DNA from: a phage
DNA: 51,987 nucleotides
Direction: 5' to 3' (one strand)
Sequence record: PZ715803.1
Under the pieces are notes generated by a model. It was not told where the DNA came from and made no database searches. It saw only the letters and a program-made list of their open reading frames with translations. Positions 4,010 to 48,418 of this stretch are shown piece after piece (the stretch's first letter is position 1; every line of letters starts with the position of its first letter). The position numbers were made by a program, and so were the translations under genes.

Positions 4010-7000
4010 ACCAACTTCCGGTTATTCTCCCTATCTCAACCCTCAATCGTCCATTTGCATCTTTCACCTTTAAGCCTTCGTTAGTGAATTTTGTAGCTCC
4101 TTCCCCCGCTCTCGTTCCGTAGTTCTCAAAGTTACCATTTTTATCAAGCCTCCATCCTTGCTGATTCTGAACAAAGTTGTTTGACTGAATAACATTTCCA
4201 ATCATGGCATTCGTGATGGACCCGTTTTTCACTAACAAGCTGTTAATGAAAACTTGGTTGTTTTCAACAACGAAAGGCAAAGTAAACTTACCGCCAGTAG
4301 AGCTAGTCATGATCGCGAACCTGTTAGCATCGAACAAGATTTGCGAGATCAGGCCTTGAGAAGATTGCGACAACTGCATGATCATTCCCGCGCTGTACTT
4401 CTGCCCCTTGTAAGTAAGGCCCAATTTCATAGCGTACTTAGCGCCAACCGAATCAACGTTAGCCCACGAATCAAGTTTTTCGGCTAGTGCTGATTCAACG
4501 TCTCCGAATTTGGCTGTTAAAGCCTGGTCAGCCTGAACCCTTGCCTCTGTCTCATTAGCGATCGCCTGTCTTACTTCTGATATGTTCGCCTCAACATCAA
4601 CCTTGATTGCATCGTTAAGGTCATTAATCTCTTTCGAAAACTTAGCGTCAAGCTGCTGAACGGCTTGCGCACGCGCTTCTGATTCATTGGTAATGGTTTG
4701 CCTTACCTCGCCAATACTTGCAGCCGTATCTCGTTTTACGCCGTCTATTTCCTGCGTAAATTTAGAATCAAGTTGCTGCACTTGAGTAGCTCGCGTCTCT
4801 GATTCGTTGGCAATCGCTTCCTGAACGGTTTTGATACTTGAAACTATATCTTCATCAATTGACGCCCTTAACTCTTCGATTTGAGTTACGCGCGCCTCAG
4901 TTTCGTTGGCGATAAGCTCAAGAGCATGACCATATTCAGCCTTACGCTTTCCGTTTTGTACTCGCGTCCACTTCACATCAGCATCGTTTGCCAATGCGTT
5001 CTGGATGATTGATTGCGCCTGGTCTTTGATTTTGTTGGCACTGTCTATGGCGTTCTCTTTGATTTCTTGACCCGCTTCGGTATCAAAAATCTTGTCCAGA
5101 ATGTCGCCTAAAACAGATTCAACATCATCTGACGCCATGCCGCGAACAAAGTCAGTCCAGCCTGAAACGTTGCCGATCCTGTCAACGCTACGGATTCTAT
5201 ACCATACAACTTGACCCGCTGGTAACGTGCTATGCCAATACTCATATTGAGGATATGGAATCAGCGTAAGCAGGCTTGAGTTTTCAACCGTTCCGTCTGG
5301 AGATTGGTGAAGCTCAATGTAAGCCGTATCGCCTGATCCTTCCGGCATACCCCATTTGACACGAATGCCAAAAACTTCATTATCAGAAGCTGTAAGATTA
5401 ATCGGCGCTCCTGGCTCGCCAACTTTACCTGTCAGGGTGGCGGTTGCAATCTTTGACCACGGGGAAGTGTTCCCGCTTGCAGAAACAGATCTAACCCTTA
5501 CTTGATAGTTCCCCGAGTAAATCCCTTCTACCTCTATCTCTTTGTTAGCTGTCTGCGGCGTATTCAGCCAGTTGCCATCACCTTTTCGCCATTGCATTTC
5601 ATACAGTGACGCATAAGGCACTTTTTCCCACGACACAACCATAGTTTCAACGCTGACACCCTGCACTACGCGAGAATAAGATGAGATCTGCACGTTCTCC
5701 GGCGCTACCATCACGTCAGGCTGAACAATTGAAGTTGGTCTGTCATCAATGTTTACGCCATAATCAATCTCGTCGTATTTGTTCGGATCGTACTCTACAG
5801 CCGTGATTGAATAGGTAAACTCGTTTTCGTCATCACCCTTGCTGATAGTTGTCACAACGTATTGCTGCAACGCAAGGTCAGTGCGGTCAATCGCAAAAAC
5901 AGTGTCAGGCTTAACATCAAAACCAAATCCAATATTTAACTCAATGGTTTTTCCGTCTGCGCTAACCTTTGAGATCGTGCGCTTAACTGGCTTGCCGTCC
6001 GGCTTGTTGATGATAATAAAATCACCAGGACGAGCATCAACCTTAAACGGAACGAAAACCTGCAATCCTGAAACTTCCATCACTCGGCCCGATAGGTTTA
6101 ACGTTAGGTTGCTGCTCTGAAAATTATCAGCGATAGCAATCACATCACCTATTGATGGAATCATCCCCTCTAGTCCGGTAGCAAAGTTTACAGTAGTGCT
6201 TCTAAGGTTTGTTTTCAAAACCCACCGACCGCGACGATTCGCTTCGCTCCTGCGTGTACACCCGATCGCTGTAATGCTTGTTGGGTTGTATCCAAATCGT
6301 AATGCCGCCTCAGTATCAAAAACCCCCTCTACGTCCTGCTGATACATGTTTTGTTCGTCGTCAAACGTCACGTTACACTGCGTGTACATGCTTTTTTCGC
6401 TTGCGGTTGTGTACTGAAAATCACCGTTGATGACGTTTTCATTAGTAAACACGTATGATGGATCGCGCGGCTTATCAATCACGATTGATAAACTCTCACC
6501 ATTCCAAAAGCTCATTCCGCGAAAGATTGAGCAAATGTCACGGATTAGCTGATAAGCCTCAACCTGATTCTGGATCACCACATCGCATAGGTAGCGAGGC
6601 TCTGTACCGCCCTTACCGTCTGGAACTTTCTGATCACAGTAAACACCAGCCTCGTATAAGCTCCACTTGTCGATCTGTATTCCTAACTCTCGCTGGTCAA
6701 GCCCATAACGCTGATTCGTTACCAGATCATAAAGAACCCAAGCAGGATTATTTGACCACGCTTTTTTAAAAGTCCCATCCCATGACCCGCGATATTCTCT
6801 TGATATTGGATCGTAGTTGCTTGGCACATTAATAATCTTCCATTTCTTTTTTATAGAAATGTTAGGGATTTGCGTAGGAAACAATTCGCTGTCAAATTCT
6901 ACGAATACAAGGCCAGTCAGAGGATAACGGAATTTTGCATCTACAACCTCAGCGTAACTTTGCAGTTTGATTTTATCAGTCACCTTTGAAGATGTGCTGT

Positions 7001-13520: not shown

Positions 13521-13539
13521 ATAGCACTTTTTGTTAAAA
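13521..13539 (+). promoter_or_regulatory. 19-bp element copy (ATAGCACTTTTTGTTAAAA), antisense to the late operon; abuts the RBS of the G chaperone gene
   Basis: Exact consensus; followed on plus strand by TTGATT repeats and TAGATT. Confidence 0.5.
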
Positions 13540-13583
13540 GTGGAATTGATTTATTTGATAGATTGATTTTACAGGAATGAAAA

Positions 13584-13602
13584 AAGGGGCGCAACGCCCC
13601 TT
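13584..13602 (-). terminator. Intrinsic terminator (AAGGGGCGCAACGCCCCTT plus T6) after the major tail gene
   Basis: Strong hairpin and T-run on minus strand. Confidence 0.6.
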
Positions 13603-13605
13603 GTT

Positions 13606-14268
13606 TTACTTAACGTCAGAAGGTAAGAACGTGAATCGACCTTTCAGAGATACGGAAAGGGAAACAGTTTCCATTTCGTTCATAGTGGTTTGCGGAATGT
13701 CATTAAAAGACAATACGCCAGCCCAGCAACGCATCTCTTTAGCTTTCGGCACGTACATACGCAAAGCGGTTACGTCGCCGGATTCCTCAGCCTCGCGCAA
13801 GATCGGATAAATCGGATTATCATATTCATGTGCGAAAGTATAGGTAAGAGAAACGGCGCTCTTGTAGGTCGGCAACTGCTGTTCCTGGTCATCAGCCAAA
13901 CACTGATAAGTGTAATACTGTTGCTCGCCGCCGTCCTGCGCAAGATCCTGTACGCAAGGAATCTCTACCCATGATTTTACTTCTCGGAAGGTTGCTGTAT
14001 TAGAACCAGCCGGAAACACGTTTTGATCGGTTGTGTCTACACCTTCAAGAGTTACGCTTGCGTTATCAGATACTTCTTTTACCCGCAACACACGACTAAC
14101 CAGTTTACCCCAGGAAGACGTTTCAATCAGAACATAAGCACCTTTTTTGATCTGCTGTGAATTACTAACAGTAAAAACCGGATCTTTAGCGTTTGAAATA
14201 TCAGTAGCGCTAATTGGCTCACCCATATTAACGCCGATGAAAATTTGAGAACCATTAGGCAAGTGCAT
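13606..14268 (-). CDS. Major tail (tube) protein
   Basis: 220 aa directly upstream of chaperone G; strong AGGAGG RBS. Confidence 0.7.
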   Translation of the reverse strand: MHLPNGSQIFIGVNMGEPISATDISNAKDPVFTVSNSQQIKKGAYVLIETSSWGKLVSRVLRVKEVSDNASVTLEGVDTTDQNVFPAGSNTATFREVKSWVEIPCVQDLAQDGGEQQYYTYQCLADDQEQQLPTYKSAVSLTYTFAHEYDNPIYPILREAEESGDVTALRMYVPKAKEMRCWAGVLSFNDIPQTTMNEMETVSLSVSLKGRFTFLPSDVK

Positions 14269-21912: not shown

Positions 21913-23481
21913 CTATTTATTGCGTAGACCTGCCAGCTTTTTCATCCTTGCTACCGGATCATCTGCCAAATTCATTTCGACGTTAACAGCATCAACTATA
22001 TTATCGACAATATCATCATGGGGATGAGAATCATCAAAAGTGAATGCTGCAACCTCTGCCAGTATCTCAGGCAGCATGGGATGATTTTCTGGCAGTGCCA
22101 CACGTCCGGCCCTCATTACTGGCGCGGCGTCCATTGCTCGCGTCACCTTGTCATTGCTTCGCTGAACGGGATTTATATCAATCGGGATCTTCTTTTTGGC
22201 CCCCTGAATCAAACCCGTGCCGCTGGCCTTATCCTCAATGTGGATACGTCGCAAGCTGCCACACTCCTTATTGCGCTTCCAGCACTGGTTAACGAAGGCA
22301 ATAAAATTTAATTCAAGATCCGGCGCTTCCCACTTTCCGCGAATGCCATCAATGAAGTAAACGCGATTCTTATACATCCCCCAATAACAAAAAACCGAAT
22401 AGTCGTTAAGCTCTCCGGCCTTCTGCGCGGTATCTCCAGTAATAAATGTGTATTCAAAGCGATCCGGTTTTGGTAGTGCGCACTTTTCGCCGCTGCCGTA
22501 ATACTGGAACCACTCTGTTTTAAACACGTTCCCGCCAAGCGCGATTGGTTGCTGTTGGTATTGGCTGGCGAACGTGTAAGGATCTGCATTGCGCAATGCA
22601 AGCAACTCCTCCGCGCTTTCCTTCGCAGGCCAAAATGAATAATGAGCGACGCCATCTATCATCACTGGCTTACTTGACAGCACATCACGATCAAATTCAG
22701 GCTTCAACCAATCAGGAAGCGTTTCGCGGTATTCTTTCGTAACCAGCGCCGGAATGCTCACGACTTTAAACTCAATACCACCCATCCCGCCATTAAGCAT
22801 GAACCAGGTGGAATCATTAACGTGTAGTCGCTGTTGCACCATAACAATTGGCGTGGTGTCTTTCATTCGACGCGATCGCACTGTGTTTTTTAACCTCATG
22901 TGAATAGCCTCGCGCTTGACCTTAGAAAGCATATCATCCGGCTTGTCTGGATCGTCAAGAACCAGCATACCAGTAAAACCATCATCCATATAGCCGCCAC
23001 GCAAACCTGTTACCTGGCCGCCAATAGAACGTGAGTTGACTTGCAATTTAACCTTGCCGCCTTCGGTGACTATCAGATCTTTAGCGCTCGCCTTTGCCAG
23101 TTTTCCAGGCCATAGCTCTTGCCACTCAGGAGAACCGATAATCTCCTTTATCCGGTTGCTGTTTTGCTGGACAAGGCCATCACTAAACGAAAGGTTAAGG
23201 TTTCTCACTTTCCGGCTTTTCAATGACGCGTAGGGTGACATGTGGATCGAGAAAATCTCAGTCTTGCCGCTACCTGGCGTAATGTTGAAAATCACATTCT
23301 GCGACTCTCCATTGATGATCTTCTCTACCTCACTGCACAATAAGCTAAAATGCCAGTTGCTCTGGAATTTTTGCCCCTGCAATAATTGGAACCAGATTCT
23401 GATCATCTTTTCGAATGAATGCTCACTGATTTCTTTAATGGCTCGCTTTTGCGCCGCCGTCAAATCTTCCCATATGATCAT
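21913..23481 (-). CDS. Terminase large subunit
   Basis: 522 aa; ATPase Walker A (TPGSGKTE) and Walker B-like VLDDPD; start overlaps TerS stop. Confidence 0.9.
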   Translation of the reverse strand: MIIWEDLTAAQKRAIKEISEHSFEKMIRIWFQLLQGQKFQSNWHFSLLCSEVEKIINGESQNVIFNITPGSGKTEIFSIHMSPYASLKSRKVRNLNLSFSDGLVQQNSNRIKEIIGSPEWQELWPGKLAKASAKDLIVTEGGKVKLQVNSRSIGGQVTGLRGGYMDDGFTGMLVLDDPDKPDDMLSKVKREAIHMRLKNTVRSRRMKDTTPIVMVQQRLHVNDSTWFMLNGGMGGIEFKVVSIPALVTKEYRETLPDWLKPEFDRDVLSSKPVMIDGVAHYSFWPAKESAEELLALRNADPYTFASQYQQQPIALGGNVFKTEWFQYYGSGEKCALPKPDRFEYTFITGDTAQKAGELNDYSVFCYWGMYKNRVYFIDGIRGKWEAPDLELNFIAFVNQCWKRNKECGSLRRIHIEDKASGTGLIQGAKKKIPIDINPVQRSNDKVTRAMDAAPVMRAGRVALPENHPMLPEILAEVAAFTFDDSHPHDDIVDNIVDAVNVEMNLADDPVARMKKLAGLRNK

Positions 23482-24008
23482 TAAAGTTGCTCCAGAATAT
23501 CAATCACAGCCTCTTTCACCTCATCGGCAGTTACTGCGTCAATGCTTGCATTAGCTGCCGCGCTCGCTTCAACGCTCACTGTTGCTGGCTTCTCTACTCC
23601 GATCTCTTTACCGATAAATCCAGCGTTAATCATGTTATTTGCCGCAAGCTGGAATTTTTGCTCGTAAATTACTTTATCAACAAACTCCATCACATCGCAG
23701 AATCCAGGCTCTTTACGCCATTTGCTTACGGCAGCCTCAGTCACGCCGAGATACAAGCTGAATCCGTTAACCGTGAAAACGCGAGGCTTGTAAACTCTGC
23801 TCTCGTACACGTCACCCTGAAAGGAAGCAGTTTCAGCCGCCTGGATGTGATTCTCTTCGGCCCAAGTGAAATAGCGGATCGCCATATCAAAAACCTGTTC
23901 CGGCGTGTACTTGTGGCGGTTATTTAGCGTGACAATATCGCCATAAGTTTTATTGTATAACTCTTTGAAATTTAATGCCTTTACAGCAGGCTCAACATTT
24001 TTAGCCAT
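23481..24008 (-). CDS. Terminase small subunit
   Basis: 175 aa directly upstream of TerL; ATG 24008 with AGGAGG RBS. Confidence 0.6.
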   Translation of the reverse strand: MAKNVEPAVKALNFKELYNKTYGDIVTLNNRHKYTPEQVFDMAIRYFTWAEENHIQAAETASFQGDVYESRVYKPRVFTVNGFSLYLGVTEAAVSKWRKEPGFCDVMEFVDKVIYEQKFQLAANNMINAGFIGKEIGVEKPATVSVEASAAANASIDAVTADEVKEAVIDILEQL

Positions 24009-27375: not shown

Positions 27376-27445
27376 TGTGATTTCCTCTTGATTGTTGATG
27401 TGAGCATTATAGCGGGGCCGATAACCCCGCGTTTAGCAATTCGTG

Positions 27446-31869: not shown

Positions 31870-31926
31870 TTTTGTTTCCTCAATCTCGTTTCGATGAGGC
31901 TATTATGCCAGGCTTTGCGCCTGGCG

Positions 31927-31945: not shown

Positions 31946-32202
31946 TTAATATCTGTTGTGACTTGCTGGTGCATTACGTTCTTTCCGCTGTTGTACGTGC
32001 TATCCGTTGCGCCTTTGCAATTGGTGTAATAGATCGCGCGACCGTTATCATAGAATCTGTATGCTGTGCATCCGTCAACAGTGAACAGGCGACCGACTTT
32101 GAAATCTGACTCCACGCCTACGACAACCGTTGATTCTGATGCCTTTTCGCATCCGGTCAGGAGTGTCATTGCCGCCAAAACGCCGATTAATGCCTTTTTC
32201 AT
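31942..32202 (-). CDS. Lipoprotein (second predicted lipoprotein; candidate receptor-masking / superinfection-exclusion protein)
   Basis: Signal peptide with lipobox LTGC; two additional Cys. Confidence 0.7.
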   Translation of the reverse strand: MKKALIGVLAAMTLLTGCEKASESTVVVGVESDFKVGRLFTVDGCTAYRFYDNGRAIYYTNCKGATDSTYNSGKNVMHQQVTTDIK

Positions 32203-32666
32203 TATTGCTCCTCCTCTTTGATGATTTCGCGGATCATATCCTGGTAGCGGCTTACGCCCTCACAAGCTCCAGCCAGTTTATCCCCTTCCAGGTCCACGAT
32301 GTTCGGGATTGCTGCCAGTAAGCGATCGGCAAACTTTTTGATCGCCCTTGCCTTGATGGCTGGCAATTCTTCGGGTGTGATGATTTTCCTTTTCGATTCG
32401 CGCACCATGCGGAAAACGTAAAATTTATCATCTTCCGTTTCCTCGACCTTGATACTTACCCGACCTGCGGCCCTTACTTCTGGAACGCGGTTGATAATGG
32501 TCCGGCTGTAGGATGAACTGCGCGTGATCTTGTAGCAGTCGTCACCGCTTAACATTCCGGCCAGGTCAATTAGTGACATTTTATACTCTTCAATATCGCC
32601 ACTAGCCAGGCGGCGACCAAGCTCGCGAAGCCAATCGCAATAGTCCTTAGTGGTCTTCTGTTCCAT
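32202..32666 (-). CDS. Hypothetical early protein (first gene of leftward early operon)
   Basis: ATG 32666 with GGAGG RBS downstream of a near-consensus sigma70 promoter. Confidence 0.65.
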   Translation of the reverse strand: MEQKTTKDYCDWLRELGRRLASGDIEEYKMSLIDLAGMLSGDDCYKITRSSSYSRTIINRVPEVRAAGRVSIKVEETEDDKFYVFRMVRESKRKIITPEELPAIKARAIKKFADRLLAAIPNIVDLEGDKLAGACEGVSRYQDMIREIIKEEEQ

Positions 32667-32697
32667 TTCCTTTCCTCCAGTTGTTGACTGTTGGCGC

Positions 32698-32725
32698 ATT
32701 ATAAAAGCTATTTGGTGCGTGTCAA
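32698..32725 (-). promoter_or_regulatory. Near-consensus sigma70 promoter (TTGACA-16 bp-TATAAT) for the leftward early operon
   Basis: Both hexamers consensus, read on minus strand about 30 bp upstream of the first early gene. Confidence 0.55.
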
Positions 32726-33159
32726 TGTTTTTGTTGTATTCAAAACGTTACCAATATCGAAAAACTACAAAATCATGCGCAAGTTATTGATTTCGCGGCT
32801 GTTATTTTTCTGTTCACGCTGTTAACGCAATCCGCCGGAAAAAGTATATATACATATGCAATCCGCCGCGCGCGCAACTATCCATATATGCCCACACACA
32901 ACCACACCATAACCAACAAAAAGCACTGTAACAGTGAGAACAAAAAGAAAACATTATAGATATATATAAATAAATAATCTTTATTTTCAATGTATTATAG
33001 AGGGATTTTTTTGTTTTTTCCGTTTTCGCTACACCGGAAAACCGCGCGGAAACATGCCGCCTGAAATCGGTAACAGGGGTGAACAAAAGACAACAACCAC
33101 TGACAGCCAGGCAAAAAAGTGAGGCAAGAGGGGAAGGTTTCACTATCTCCCCTGCAACC

Positions 33160-33250
33160 AATGATTAAACGTGATTGCTTTTCTCATCAAATTTGCAAAG
33201 GCAATCATCATTTTGACGTGATTTGATTACGAATGATTACTTTTGATTAT
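33160..33250 (+). repeat. Cluster of TGATT(A) direct repeats at 10-11 bp phasing (iteron-like)
   Basis: TGATTAC, TGATTAC, TGATTAT at about 33224, 33234, 33244, plus TGATTA/TGATTG at about 33160-33180. Confidence 0.45.
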
Positions 33251-33280
33251 TTCTATCGCAATCCTGGCGCTAACCGTCAA

Positions 33281-33299
33281 ATAGCACTTTTTGTTAAAA
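33281..33299 (+). promoter_or_regulatory. 19-bp element copy, then 22 bp, then TACATT; promoter of the rightward early operon
   Basis: Exact consensus; CATCGAAAC leader and GGAGA RBS follow. Confidence 0.55.
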
Positions 33300-33358
33300 C
33301 TCAGGCCACCTGATCGGGTACATTGCACACATCGAAACGAACCGCTCAGGAGATAGCA

Positions 33359-33631
33359 ATGAACATCAGCAAAACCACTTTCAATTTCGCCAAGCGTCAC
33401 GGTCTGGATCTGACTGTTGAAGATTTTGGCGATGTTCTGCAACTCTGCATTTGGGAAGCAGATAACGATTGCGAGTGGCTTTGCTCTTATCGCATCAACT
33501 ACGATTGCTTGACCTGGCACGGCAATATCTATCTGCCGCAAGAAGTGAAAGAAGAATTGCCAGCGACTATCAACAACGAGGTTTTCTTGCGTCAGGTGCT
33601 GAAATTTATCAGTGAGGAGATCAAGAAGTAA
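33359..33631 (+). CDS. Hypothetical protein
   Basis: ATG 33359 with GGAGA RBS (ORF-track start 33323 is upstream). Confidence 0.6.
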   Translation: MNISKTTFNFAKRHGLDLTVEDFGDVLQLCIWEADNDCEWLCSYRINYDCLTWHGNIYLPQEVKEELPATINNEVFLRQVLKFISEEIKK

Positions 33632-33897
33632 TGGCGGTGATTACCGAAAATGATTTGGATCTGGCGGAGGCGTTTTGCAGGGCCGCCAGGGCTAACCTGG
33701 ATGTGATGACTAAATTTCTTCCGGCGCGCACACTCTTTTCATGTGCGCCCGTGAATAAACCGACTCGCGTGATGATCGTGATTGAAGGTGATGGCCTGTA
33801 CGCTGAAAAGACGTTCCACATCAGCAACATTAAGGGCCGTGCTGATTTTATCAATGATGTTTGCTTATTGCAGGAGAAGAAAAAATGTTGGATGTGA
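33631..33897 (+). CDS. Hypothetical protein (shares F-INxVC motif with next gene)
   Basis: 88 aa; start overlaps upstream stop. Confidence 0.6.
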   Translation: MAVITENDLDLAEAFCRAARANLDVMTKFLPARTLFSCAPVNKPTRVMIVIEGDGLYAEKTFHISNIKGRADFINDVCLLQEKKKCWM

Positions 33898-34094
33898 TCA
33901 AGAAAGCACATGAGATGGGTATGGATGTTTCAATCAGTGATGCGCAACGCTATAACCGCTCAATGCCTGAAAACATGGTTGTAGTCATCGTGCATAATCA
34001 TAAGTTTGAATGCCGCGCAATTCTTGAGCGTGACAACAAAGGGGCGCAAAGCAATTTTATCAACGAAGTCTGTGATCTGTATGGGCGTATCTGA
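33885..34094 (+). CDS. Hypothetical protein (paralog-like to 33631..33897)
   Basis: ATG 33885 with AGGAGA RBS. Confidence 0.55.
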   Translation: MLDVIKKAHEMGMDVSISDAQRYNRSMPENMVVVIVHNHKFECRAILERDNKGAQSNFINEVCDLYGRI

Positions 34095-37308: not shown

Positions 37309-37362
37309 GCCAGGTGTAAAAACCTGGCATAATCACATCGAACAAACAAAGGAGATCTGATC

Positions 37363-43311: not shown

Positions 43312-43368
43312 TTTTATTTCCTCATGTTTGCTTCGTTGAAATAATTATGCCCGACACTAGGCCGGGCG

Positions 43369-44374: not shown

Positions 44375-44438
44375 TTCATTTCTCCGCTATTAAAAGCTAT
44401 CTCGTGTTATTGAATTATGGCGCAATCCATCGCGCCAG

Positions 44439-46957: not shown

Positions 46958-47434
46958 ATGAAAGATGCACGAATTGCAGTGTCTACGGGTGAGATCGACA
47001 AGCGCACTATTAACGGTAACAACGGAACGCGACGAGGTAAAGACAAAAAGCCACGAAAACACCGAACCGGATTTCTTATCCTGCGAGATGAGGTAAAAGC
47101 AAGCCTGAAATCTCGCCTTGACATTCTGATCGAGTATTACGGCGGCGTTCCTGCTATGGCTCGACGTCTGCGCGTATCTCAGCAAGTCGTTAACCAGTGG
47201 CGAAAGCGTGGTATGATTTCAGCCGCTGGAGCACAAAAGGTGCATAACGACTACAAATATAATGGATGCAAAGGATACCGCGCCTCGTTTTGTCGTCCAG
47301 ATCTGCGGTTTGATTCTAACGGCAAGCCTCTTACTACCCGTTGCGACAAATACGAAATGTTGCGCGTAGTCAAAAATTCAGACTACGAACCAGGCGGACG
47401 ATTCTACAAAGGTGATAACAGCACGAATAGCTAA
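46958..47434 (+). CDS. Helix-turn-helix DNA-binding protein
   Basis: Cro/CI-like HTH segment (MARRLRVSQQVVNQWRKRG); GAGGTGA RBS. Confidence 0.65.
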   Translation: MKDARIAVSTGEIDKRTINGNNGTRRGKDKKPRKHRTGFLILRDEVKASLKSRLDILIEYYGGVPAMARRLRVSQQVVNQWRKRGMISAAGAQKVHNDYKYNGCKGYRASFCRPDLRFDSNGKPLTTRCDKYEMLRVVKNSDYEPGGRFYKGDNSTNS

Positions 47435-47488: not shown

Positions 47489-48418
47489 ATGAATACTGAA
47501 AACTTTATGACCTATCAGAAAGAAGATGTTTTGCCATATATGAAGGGGTTATGGCGTGAAGCACTACAAAGCATTTGCGGACTGCATAGCGATGTTTTCA
47601 ACAAAAAGCATCAGCCTTGCCCACACTGCGGCGGTAAGGATCGTTTTAGATGGACTGATAAGCTAAATGAAGAGGGCGACGGCGGCGCGATCTGCAACGT
47701 GTGCGGTAACGACACGGGGATCGGTTGGTTAATGAAATTAACTGGCGAACCTTACAGCGAGGCCATCAACATTTTGGGTCGCTTCCTCGGAAAAGTGCCG
47801 CAGGATTACAGGATCAGAGCAAACAAACGCGCTTCGCGTTCTTCTGGTTACTCGTTCGGGAAACAGGCAAGTCATGAATGCTGCGAAAAAGTGATGGCAA
47901 AAACATTAAAATTCGATCGCACACCTTTAAGCGTTTATGAGGGGATATATCCGCCGGAAGGTTGTCATTATGATTGCGGCGTCAAGGATGGTCGATACAT
48001 TCACGCGCTACCTTGTCACCTGGTGCATGATGATGGGCTGGATGATGAAATGTGTAACGTGCTTTTCATTGATGAGGATGGAAAGGATTGGTTTTTAGCT
48101 CGCGACTACACGCGCGGGTCTGTTGTTAAAACAGGTAGCACAGATAAGACGATCTATTTGTGCCTTGATTGGGTTGATTCCCAGCATGTTCATTTATCAA
48201 CTGGTCAAGAGGTGTGGGCCTGCTTTACTCCTTCAAATCTTGAAATGGTTGCGCATAGATATAAAGGAGAAAGAAGAATGCGCGTAGTCTGCCGGAAGGA
48301 TGATCGTGATGTGATAATCGCGGCAGAGGAAAGAGGTCTTGACATAATGATGCCTGTTAACGATAATTTTAAACAGGGCGTAGAAAGAAAACTCTACAAG
48401 CCCGAATCACTGCTATAA
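47489..48418 (+). CDS. Putative DNA primase (zinc-ribbon CxxC...CxxC N-terminus)
   Basis: CPHCGG...CNVCG zinc-binding motif near N-terminus; ATG 47489 with GAGG RBS. Confidence 0.6.
   Translation: MNTENFMTYQKEDVLPYMKGLWREALQSICGLHSDVFNKKHQPCPHCGGKDRFRWTDKLNEEGDGGAICNVCGNDTGIGWLMKLTGEPYSEAINILGRFLGKVPQDYRIRANKRASRSSGYSFGKQASHECCEKVMAKTLKFDRTPLSVYEGIYPPEGCHYDCGVKDGRYIHALPCHLVHDDGLDDEMCNVLFIDEDGKDWFLARDYTRGSVVKTGSTDKTIYLCLDWVDSQHVHLSTGQEVWACFTPSNLEMVAHRYKGERRMRVVCRKDDRDVIIAAEERGLDIMMPVNDNFKQGVERKLYKPESLL

What the first reader, a model, noticed from the sequence alone, without database searches (positions are those of the whole stretch)
32700..33330. Control region B with phased TGATTA repeats (iteron-like array)
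Between the consensus leftward early promoter (TTGACA-16-TATAAT, 32698-32725) and the rightward element promoter (33281) lie about 550 bp of non-coding DNA. Besides the motifs shared with region A, it has TGATTAC, TGATTAC, TGATTAT at exactly 10-bp intervals (about 33224, 33234, 33244), more TGATT copies at 33160-33180, and a GGGGA..TCCCC hairpin at 33131-33153. Ten-bp phased direct repeats place binding sites on one face of the helix, as in replication-origin iterons or operator arrays. A smaller TTGATT triplet with the same phasing follows the element copy at 13551-13575.
Basis: seen in the sequence. Interest (0 to 1): 0.65.

Follow-up and report, generated by a model that had tools for sequence, protein, structure and literature searches.

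The report
Probable packaging-start (pac) repeats
The phased TGATTA repeats are real and conserved, but in this T1-like coliphage they lie where related phages start packaging DNA into heads, so they are more likely docking sites for the small terminase than replication-origin iterons.

Summary
The window is a T1-like coliphage (Drexlerviridae, Warwickvirus). The finding covers its 690-bp divergent intergenic region, 32669-33358.

TGATTAC, TGATTAC and TGATTAT start at 33224, 33234 and 33244, exactly 10 bp apart. Four more TGATT/AATCA copies lie at 33162, 33172, 33203 and 33219. This is the only such triple in 52 kb (0 of 2000 simulations).

The GGGGA..TCCCC "hairpin" is not a significant structure (z = 0.05). 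The 13.5-kb "triplet" is spaced 9 and 8 bp, not 10.

The iteron reading is not the best one. The GenBank records of T1 and TLS both start inside the homologous region, within their own TGATT clusters. TLS position 1 is the restriction-mapped pac site. T1 position 1 opens the annotated terminal repeat. Three further records are opened 10-20 bp from the first repeat.

TGATT/AATCA is the most enriched of 512 pentamers across six diverged lineages (27 against 7.2 expected). Each discrete array type travels with a discrete small-terminase (TerS) allele.

Best explanation (confidence about 0.5): these are pac-recognition repeats for the P22-gp3-type TerS. Binding is inferred, not shown.

In passing: the family's unexplained 21-nt repeat matches the MarA/SoxS/Rob marbox perfectly, in class II geometry.

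The parts
33224..33250 (+). Proximal array: TGATTAC, TGATTAC, TGATTAT at exactly 10-bp spacing (33224, 33234, 33244)
   Evidence: No substitution in these cores in 8 W-type sequences.
33219..33223 (+). Extra TGATT copy abutting the array. It varies among relatives (CGATT in L002, AGATT in orkinos)
33162..33177 (+). Distal pair: TGATTA (33162) and TGATTG (33172), 10 bp apart. Most relatives have TGATTA at the second site
33203..33207 (-). Inverted copy (AATCA on the + strand) between the two clusters
33130..33152 (.). It is a candidate pac cleavage zone: record XY3 starts at window 33143, G29-2 ends at the equivalent of 33145, and haarsle at about 33154
   Evidence: The cleavage role is inferred.
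33089..33358 (.). Right-hand module of the intergenic region (block + TGATT array + first rightward promoter). It is 92-100% identical to phage atuna, while the left part is only 44-86% identical. The mosaic junction is at about 33089
   Evidence: The sub-segment 33125-33280 is present at >=95% identity in exactly 61 records.
23481..24008 (-). Small terminase TerS (Pfam GP3_package, the P22 gp3 family), the proposed reader of the repeats
21913..23481 (-). Large terminase TerL, the presumed nuclease that makes the pac cut
   Evidence: by homology to annotated TerL
32698..32725 (-). Leftward consensus sigma-70 promoter TTGACA-16-TATAAT
33279..33324 (+). First rightward 'element' promoter: 21-nt repeat AAATAGCACTTTTTGTTAAAAC (perfect marbox match at 33284-33298), an 18-bp gap, then the -10 hexamer TACATT at 33319-33324
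32941..33000 (.). AT-rich core, the most widely conserved piece across Drexlerviridae. It is flanked by inverted TGTTCAC/GTGAACA (32811, 33079). These are better origin candidates than the TGATTA array

Best explanation
The TGATT(A) cluster at 33162-33250 is the recognition part of the phage's pac site.

Proposed mechanism. An oligomer of the gp3-type small terminase (gene 23481-24008, - strand) binds the repeated pentamers on replicated concatemers. It positions the large terminase (21913-23481, - strand) to make the first cut nearby, possibly in the conserved block GTTTCAC|TATCTCCCC at about 33143-33145. Headful packaging then runs leftward, towards 32669 and the terminase genes.

Shown:
- The cluster exists, is unique in the genome and is statistically non-random.
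- The same pentamer clusters at the same place in diverged relatives.
- That place is where mapped or annotated genome ends of relatives lie.
- Each array type pairs with a discrete TerS allele.

Inferred: that TerS is the protein that binds, where the cut falls, and the packaging direction in this particular phage.
For: (1) TLS. GenBank position 1 is the sequence AGATTT, which the authors assigned as pac after restriction mapping. The HindIII site at 5876 and the EcoRV site at 2733 reproduce their 5,882-bp and 2.7-kb pac fragments (PMC11447400). TLS bases 1-40 read AGATTTTGTGATTGAAATTGATTTGATTTGATTAGATTTGAG, and position 1 lies 588 bp from the ortholog of window gene 32202-32669.

(2) T1. Position 1 opens the annotated 2.8-kb terminal repeat. 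It lies 538 bp from the same ortholog and splits a repeated GATGTGATTGTTGC motif.

(3) Projection. Those two distances project onto window 33207-33257, which is the TGATTA triple.

(4) Local maxima. In the joined TLS and T1 loci (14 and 11 kb), the densest TGATT/AATCA window is at the record junction.

(5) SU57. Its PhageTerm end lies in the same untranslated region, and its authors place pac there for T1-like phages (PMC7718038).

(6) Other record ends. G29-2 was linearised where most reads ended abruptly (PMC6563267). Its end, the start of XY3 and the end of haarsle all fall 10-20 bp left of the first repeat. pSf-1, the closest published relative of G29-2, is not opened there.

(7) Unbiased test. 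AATCA/TGATT ranks first of 512 pentamers in the 230 bp upstream of the first rightward element in six diverged lineages: 27 against 7.2 expected, p = 1.4e-8, with at least 2 copies in each.

(8) TerS. It belongs to the P22 gp3 family, and the P22 pac core, as quoted in PMC11447400, contains AGATTT.

(9) Pairing with TerS alleles. The W array occurs in 61 records and W-type TerS (>=95%) in 61, with 59 of 60 listed accessions shared. The E array occurs in 64 records and E-type TerS (>=95%) in 63. Between types TerS is 66-75% identical while TerL is 91-94%.

(10) Linkage across a mosaic junction. The array stays linked to TerS, 9 kb away, although the adjacent gene and the left half of the intergenic region have been exchanged: only 45 and 43 records respectively share them.
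Against: - No binding or cleavage data exist for this phage or its genus.
- The TLS pac position has gel resolution only, and its final placement was by a 6-bp motif. How T1 position 1 was fixed could not be checked, because the paper is not held.
- Some record starts may have been copied from T1 or TLS conventions.
- The TerS/array pairing does not discriminate. The DUF3987 helicase also has exactly 61 records at >=95% identity, so this may be a clade effect.
- Within the W type, core positions vary less than spacers (1 of 35 against 8 of 71), but the difference is not significant.
- Arrangement, orientation and spacing of the pentamers differ between lineages.
- A Klebsiella relative has only one copy.
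- If the cut is at about 33144 and packaging runs leftward, the repeats lie on the side that is not packaged first. That differs from lambda cosB.
Confidence: 0.5

Rival explanations
1. Upstream regulatory array. The repeats bind a phage or host transcription factor that activates, represses or insulates the first rightward promoter, or loops to the leftward promoter.
For: The array lies upstream of the first rightward promoter, at about -81 to -169. Other lineages carry different short repeats directly upstream of the same promoter: GGAATAA pairs in BEBK14, Hanrivervirus and T1, 10 copies against 0.68 expected. The region is a divergent early control region.
Against: None of the other 18 element promoters has such an array. 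The array does not overlap core promoter elements. No DNA-binding domain was found in the adjacent genes. The TGATT cluster is conserved across lineages whose promoter-proximal repeats differ, which suggests a separate function.
Confidence: 0.2
2. Replication-origin iterons. An initiator binds the phased repeats and melts the nearby AT-rich DNA.
For: There are direct repeats at helical phasing. An AT-rich core (32941-33000) lies in the same intergenic region. Cumulative GC skew has a minimum near 33 kb. No origin is known for T1-like phages (PMC11447400, PMC7718038).
Against: - The skew switch coincides with the switch in transcription direction, so it is uninformative.
- The array is 170-250 bp from the AT-rich core.
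- The cores are 5-7 bp long, not iteron-sized.
- The phasing is not conserved in relatives.
- No initiator gene is adjacent.
- Region A (2315-2815) shares the AT-rich and CA-rich architecture but has no TGATT array.
- The helicase is about 88% identical between the W and E lineages, yet the arrays cannot be aligned.
- The inverted TGTTCAC/GTGAACA repeats that flank the AT-rich core are better iteron candidates.
Confidence: 0.12
3. No function. The array is a local 10-bp slippage duplication that has been inherited passively.
For: The TRF score is low (35) and comparable to 14 other short tandem repeats in the window. The within-type conservation test is underpowered.
Against: The same pentamer is enriched at the same place in six lineages, in arrangements that cannot derive from one another by slippage. 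The four TGATTA cores are invariant in 8 sequences.
Confidence: 0.08

Closest known systems
pac site of phages TLS and T1 (Drexlerviridae)
   Same: It occupies the homologous position in the same divergent intergenic region, at the same distance from the DUF7174 gene. The flanking architecture is the same, and there is a local TGATT/AATCA cluster.
   Different: The published TLS assignment rests on the hexamer AGATTT, chosen by analogy with P22. The repeat cluster has not been described. The TLS paper states that no iteron-like repeats (of the lambda-origin kind) were found anywhere in the genome (PMC11447400). The repeat arrangement in the window (10-bp phased TGATTA) differs from TLS (5-bp tandem) and from T1 (GATGTGATTGTTGC at 30 bp).
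Bacteriophage P22 pac / gp3 small terminase
   Same: TerS belongs to the same Pfam family, GP3_package. Packaging is headful. The P22 pac core AAGATTTATCTG, as quoted in PMC11447400, contains a WGATT pentamer.
   Different: P22 pac is a single asymmetric 22-bp site inside the TerS gene (own knowledge). Here the candidate is a multi-copy array in non-coding DNA, 9 kb from terS.
Bacteriophage P1 pac (clusters of TGATCA/G hexamers)
   Same: Several copies of a nearly identical short motif (TGATTA against TGATCA) lie in two clusters within about 100-160 bp. The P1 details are from my own knowledge and were not tested here.
   Different: TGATTA has no GATC, so Dam methylation control as in P1 cannot act on the repeats themselves. 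P1 uses PacA/PacB, which are unrelated to gp3. The candidate cut here lies outside the two clusters, not between them.
Plasmid and phage origin iterons (lambda ori, P4 ori)
   Same: They are direct repeats at helical phasing in non-coding DNA near AT-rich sequence.
   Different: The repeat unit is much shorter. It is not adjacent to the AT-rich core. There is no neighbouring initiator gene, and the phasing is not conserved in relatives.

Membership tests
pac site of a headful-packaging phage | Coincides with the physical end of the first chromosome of a packaging series | tested here: inconclusive
   No virion-end data exist for this phage. By homology, the TLS mapped pac and the T1 terminal-repeat start project onto 33207-33257. 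The G29-2, XY3 and haarsle record ends project onto 33143-33154.
pac site of a headful-packaging phage | The phage encodes a pac-type terminase (TerS and TerL) | tested here: met
   TerS matches GP3_package at E = 3.8e-11. TerL is 91-100% identical to annotated TerL of relatives. T1-like phages are documented headful packagers (PMC11447400).
pac site of a headful-packaging phage | Single site per genome | tested here: met
   It is the only TGATTA triple and the single densest TGATT/AATCA window in 52 kb.
pac site of a headful-packaging phage | Specific binding by the small terminase | not testable with these tools
   This needs EMSA or footprinting.
pac site of a headful-packaging phage | Site type co-varies with the TerS allele | tested here: inconclusive
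   W array 61 records and W TerS 61 records. E array 64 and E TerS 63. TerS is 66-75% identical between types against 91-94% for TerL. However, the helicase also shows 61 records, so a clade effect is not excluded.
Replication-origin iterons | Array directly adjoins an AT-rich unwinding element | tested here: not met
   The AT-rich core is at 32941-33000 and the array at 33162-33250, a gap of 160-250 bp.
Replication-origin iterons | A cognate initiator gene is present, usually adjacent | tested here: not met
   The flanking genes are DUF7174 and proteins without a Pfam match. The only HTH hit is sub-threshold, at 46958-47434 beside the primase.
Replication-origin iterons | Origin activity | not testable with these tools
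   This needs replication assays or marker-frequency analysis.
Operator array | Sites overlap or abut the core promoter elements | tested here: not met
   The array lies at -81 to -169 from the predicted rightward start and about 440-525 bp from the leftward promoter.
P1-type pac | Repeated hexamers carry GATC (Dam control) | tested here: not met
   TGATTA, TGATTG and TGATTAC contain no GATC. Relatives have GATC sites next to the repeats, not inside them.
Class II marbox promoter (for the flanking 21-nt element, noticed in passing) | Matches gcannwwntgnnaaa, in forward orientation, centred between -36 and -55 | tested here: met
   There are 19 perfect matches against 1.42 expected, all oriented with transcription. 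A -10-like hexamer lies 19-20 nt after the AAA in 16 of 19 copies, which puts the marbox centre near -40. Binding by MarA, SoxS or Rob was not tested.

The most novel reading that the evidence does not exclude
T1-family phages define packaging specificity by arrays of WGATT pentamers that wrap a gp3-type TerS ring. The discrete array types (W, E, BEBK14, TLS, T1) and their matching TerS alleles would then be co-evolving 'packaging immunity' types that stop co-infecting relatives from packaging each other's DNA. The same 690-bp region would then combine pac, the likely origin (an AT-rich core flanked by inverted TGTTCAC repeats) and divergent early promoters, the rightward one being a host MarA/SoxS/Rob-type class II marbox promoter.
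Probability: 0.3. Interest if true: 0.6.

Novelty: new member of a known kind. Interest (0 to 1): 0.5.

Why it matters
T1-like phages are common laboratory contaminants, generalized transducers and candidates for phage therapy. Their pac site is known only at restriction-map resolution, and their origin is unknown.

A sequence-level candidate for pac recognition, with discrete types paired to TerS alleles, has three uses:
- It makes packaging specificity directly testable.
- It helps to orient and open Drexlerviridae genome records consistently.
- It allows the design of pac-carrying plasmids for transduction.

The evaluation also redirects the search for the origin to the AT-rich core to the left of the array.

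Tried and rejected
- Rfam search of 32000-34000 at E <= 1: no match.
- Hairpin 33130-33152: z = 0.05, so rejected as a structure.
- Coding potential of the region: the 115-aa TTG ORF is not conserved.
- Scan for extra sigma-70 promoters: only the leftward one was found.
- Host-factor sites (IHF, Fis, Fur, CpxR-like) compared by eye with consensus sequences from memory: no convincing fit, so none is claimed.
- IMG/VR searches by protein and by DNA pattern: only 2 and 5 loci, so the GenBank phage collection was used instead.
- Core-versus-spacer conservation within the W type: in the right direction but underpowered.
- TerS/array co-occurrence as a discriminator: undermined by identical counts for the helicase.
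- A phage-encoded AraC/MarA-like activator for the marbox element: no Pfam hit in 30 proteins scanned.
- The T1 genome paper could not be read.

Full report
**Identity and setting.** The window is a complete or nearly complete T1-like siphophage genome. It is 96-98% identical over 2.5 kb to Escherichia phages vB_EcoS-95, JLBYU26 and FritzSarasin (Drexlerviridae, Tempevirinae, Warwickvirus). The finding covers the 690-bp divergent intergenic region 32669-33358. To its left is the leftward gene 32202-32669 (Pfam DUF7174). To its right is the rightward gene 33359-33631.

**The observation.**
- TGATTAC, TGATTAC and TGATTAT start at 33224, 33234 and 33244, exactly 10 bp apart.
- Further copies are TGATT at 33219, TGATTA at 33162, TGATTG at 33172, and an inverted AATCA at 33203.
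- This is the only TGATTA triple at 10-bp spacing in the window. It appeared in none of 2000 order-2 Markov simulations.
- The region is the densest 100-bp window for TGATT/AATCA: 7 copies against 0.53 expected.
- The leftward promoter is a perfect 12 of 12 match.
- The region has no conserved ORF and no Rfam match.
- Two details fail. The GGGGA..TCCCC hairpin is no more stable than shuffles, z = 0.05. The "triplet" at 13.5 kb has spacings of 9 and 8 bp.

**Comparison with relatives.**
- The right part of the region (33089-33358) is 92-100% identical to phage atuna, while the left part is only 44-86% identical. A mosaic junction therefore lies at about 33089.
- The array is unchanged in atuna and nearly unchanged in FritzSarasin and an IMG/VR contig.
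- Other lineages have sequences here that cannot be aligned, yet they keep the pentamer:
  - Hanrivervirus phages have AATCA-NN-TGATTA with a variable 2-nt centre, plus further TGATT copies.
  - BEBK14 has TGATTAATCA.
  - TLS, Stevie and phSE-5 have AATCAAATCAAATCA plus three more copies.
  - T1 has four AATCA and one TGATT within 100 bp.
- An unbiased count of all 512 strand-symmetric pentamers was made in the 230 bp upstream of the first rightward element of six lineages. AATCA/TGATT ranks first: 27 against 7.2 expected, p = 1.4e-8, with at least 2 copies in every lineage.
- A Klebsiella relative has only one copy, so the feature belongs to the Tempevirinae/Tunavirinae coliphage group and not to the whole family.

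**The decisive lead: genome ends of relatives.**
- The GenBank records of TLS and T1 both begin inside this intergenic region.
- TLS position 1 is AGATTT, the sequence its authors assigned as pac after mapping a submolar pac-HindIII fragment. The HindIII site at 5876 and the EcoRV site at 2733 reproduce their 5,882-bp and 2.7-kb fragments (PMC11447400).
- T1 position 1 opens the annotated 2.8-kb terminal repeat.
- These positions lie 588 and 538 bp from the DUF7174 ortholog. That projects onto window 33207-33257, the TGATTA triple.
- In both phages position 1 lies inside the pentamer cluster, and that cluster is the densest in the 11-14 kb examined.
- The SU57 study found a PhageTerm end in the same untranslated region and states that pac lies there in T1-like phages (PMC7718038).
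- G29-2 was linearised where most reads ended abruptly (PMC6563267). Its end, the start of XY3 and the end of haarsle all fall in or next to the conserved block GTTTCACTATCTCCCC, equivalent to window 33143-33154 and 10-20 bp left of the first repeat.
- pSf-1, the closest published relative of G29-2, is not opened there.

**Link to the terminase.**
- TerS (23481-24008, - strand) belongs to the P22 gp3 family.
- It is 100% identical between the window and atuna. It is only 66.5% identical to BEBK14 and 74.6% to aalborv, whereas TerL is 90.8% and 92.5% identical.
- The W-type array segment occurs in exactly 61 phage records, all at >=95% identity. W-type TerS (>=95%) also occurs in 61 records, and 59 of the 60 listed accessions are shared.
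- The E-type array occurs in 64 records and E-type TerS (>=95%) in 63.
- In contrast, only 45 records keep the adjacent DUF7174 allele, and only 43 keep the whole intergenic region.
- Caveat: the DUF3987 helicase also has 61 records at >=95%. The pairing is therefore consistent with a TerS/pac relationship but does not prove it.
- Within the W type, the four TGATTA cores never vary in 8 sequences. Variable sites are 1 of 35 in cores against 8 of 71 outside them, which is not significant.

**Interpretation.**
- The most likely function is pac recognition. TerS oligomers would bind the TGATT(A) repeats, TerL would cut nearby, and headful packaging would run leftward. I put this at about 0.5.
- Rivals are an upstream transcriptional regulatory array (0.2), origin iterons (0.12) and a functionless duplication (0.08).
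- The origin reading is weakened on five counts:
  - The array is distant from the AT-rich core.
  - No initiator gene is adjacent.
  - The phasing is not conserved.
  - Region A (2315-2815) shares the AT-rich and CA-rich architecture but lacks the array.
  - Better iteron candidates exist: inverted TGTTCAC/GTGAACA flanking the AT-rich core, 2 in the region against 0.09 expected, with lineage-specific equivalents in TLS, Stevie, PaulSarasin and T1.

**Comparison with known systems.**
- The array works like the multi-repeat pac sites of P1 or SPP1, and it belongs with the gp3-type terminases of P22. The details of those systems are from my own knowledge.
- It fails the P1 feature of GATC inside the repeats.
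- It differs from P22 in being multi-copy, non-coding and 9 kb from terS.
- The approximate pac position in T1 and TLS is published. [quoted passage not shown]
- I therefore rate it a new member of a known kind.

**Side observation of possibly greater weight.**
- The 21-nt repeat of T1-like phages (aaATAGCACnnnTTGnTAAAA) has an unknown function, which the TLS paper lists as an open question.
- It matches the published marbox pattern gcannwwntgnnaaa at every specified position. The window holds 19 perfect copies against 1.42 expected, all oriented with transcription.
- A -10-like hexamer lies 19-20 nt downstream in 16 of 19 copies. This places the marbox centre near -40, which is class II geometry by the definition in PMC12052159.
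- No AraC-family protein was found in 30 phage proteins scanned.
- No paper in the searchable library links marboxes to these phages.

Noticed in passing
19 sites, e.g. 33284-33298 (+), 34588, 35094, 37293, 37967, 40129 (+); 26126, 28948, 30262, 31479, 31942, 43384, 44454 (-): The conserved 21-nt repeat of T1-like phages (AAATAGCACTTTTTGTTAAAAC) has no known function according to PMC11447400. It matches the MarA/SoxS/Rob marbox pattern gcannwwntgnnaaa perfectly: 19 copies against 1.42 expected. All copies are oriented with transcription, and 16 of 19 have a -10-like hexamer 19-20 nt downstream, which is class II geometry. No AraC-family protein was found in the phage. This suggests that host Rob, MarA or SoxS, or an unknown mimic, drives much of the phage's transcription.
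   Followed up: partly
32799-32825 and 33070-33095, flanking 32941-33000: TGTTCAC (32811, +) and GTGAACA (33079) lie in inverted orientation on either side of the AT-rich core: 2 copies against 0.09 expected. Lineage-specific equivalents exist in TLS (TGTTCACG x2), Stevie, PaulSarasin and T1 (GTTAATCGT x3). These are better origin-iteron candidates than the TGATTA array. From memory, they resemble the P4 ori iteron TGTTCACC.
   Followed up: partly
2315-2815 (region A) compared with 32669-33100: A second divergent intergenic region repeats the left and central architecture of region B: T-rich CTGTT repeats, a TATATACATA stretch, a CA-rich stretch and an AT-rich core. An example is 2579-2622 against 32937-32980. 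It lacks the TGATT cluster. Many relatives also show two places matching this core.
   Followed up: partly
13521-13607: One element/marbox copy points rightward within a leftward gene block. It is followed by TAGATT (a -10-like hexamer) and, about 10 nt later, by a strong bidirectional terminator hairpin (AAAAAAGGGGCGCAACGCCCCTTGTTTT). This would give a transcript of only about 35 nt, so it may be a tiny RNA or a decoy promoter.
   Followed up: no
e.g. 31901-31925, 43343-43367, 37310-37330, 44413-44437, 27411-27431: Many element promoters carry a GC-rich inverted repeat in the 18-bp gap between the marbox and the -10 hexamer. Read on the opposite strand, the hairpin is followed by the T-run of the element (GTTTTAAC). 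The same DNA could therefore be a promoter in one direction and a terminator for antisense transcription in the other.
   Followed up: no
32924-32958 (- strand): A perfect TATAAT lies on the - strand at 32953-32958, inside the AT-rich core. It is followed about 15 nt downstream by a terminator-like hairpin, CACTGTTACAGTG plus CTTTTTG. This could be a very short leftward transcript in the candidate origin region.
   Followed up: no
46958-47434 (+), next to primase 47489-48418 (+): A 158-aa protein has sub-threshold Cro/YdaS-type helix-turn-helix matches (E = 1e-6 and 6e-4). It lies directly upstream of a primase with a zinc-ribbon domain. It is a candidate origin-binding or regulatory protein.
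   Followed up: no
Homologous segment in BEBK14, Hanrivervirus phages and T1 (loci L007, L025, L018/L019); absent from the window: GGAATA(A) repeats lie directly upstream of the first rightward element in three lineages: 10 copies against 0.68 expected. In Hanrivervirus they form a larger palindrome, TTATTCC-TG-TTATTCC-TGATTAAT-GGAATAG-NT-GGAATAA. The window lineage lacks them.
   Followed up: partly
33254-33259: The window reads TATCGC where the seven other W-type sequences aligned read GATCAC. The window has therefore lost the Dam (GATC) site that lies immediately right of the TGATTA array in its relatives.
   Followed up: no
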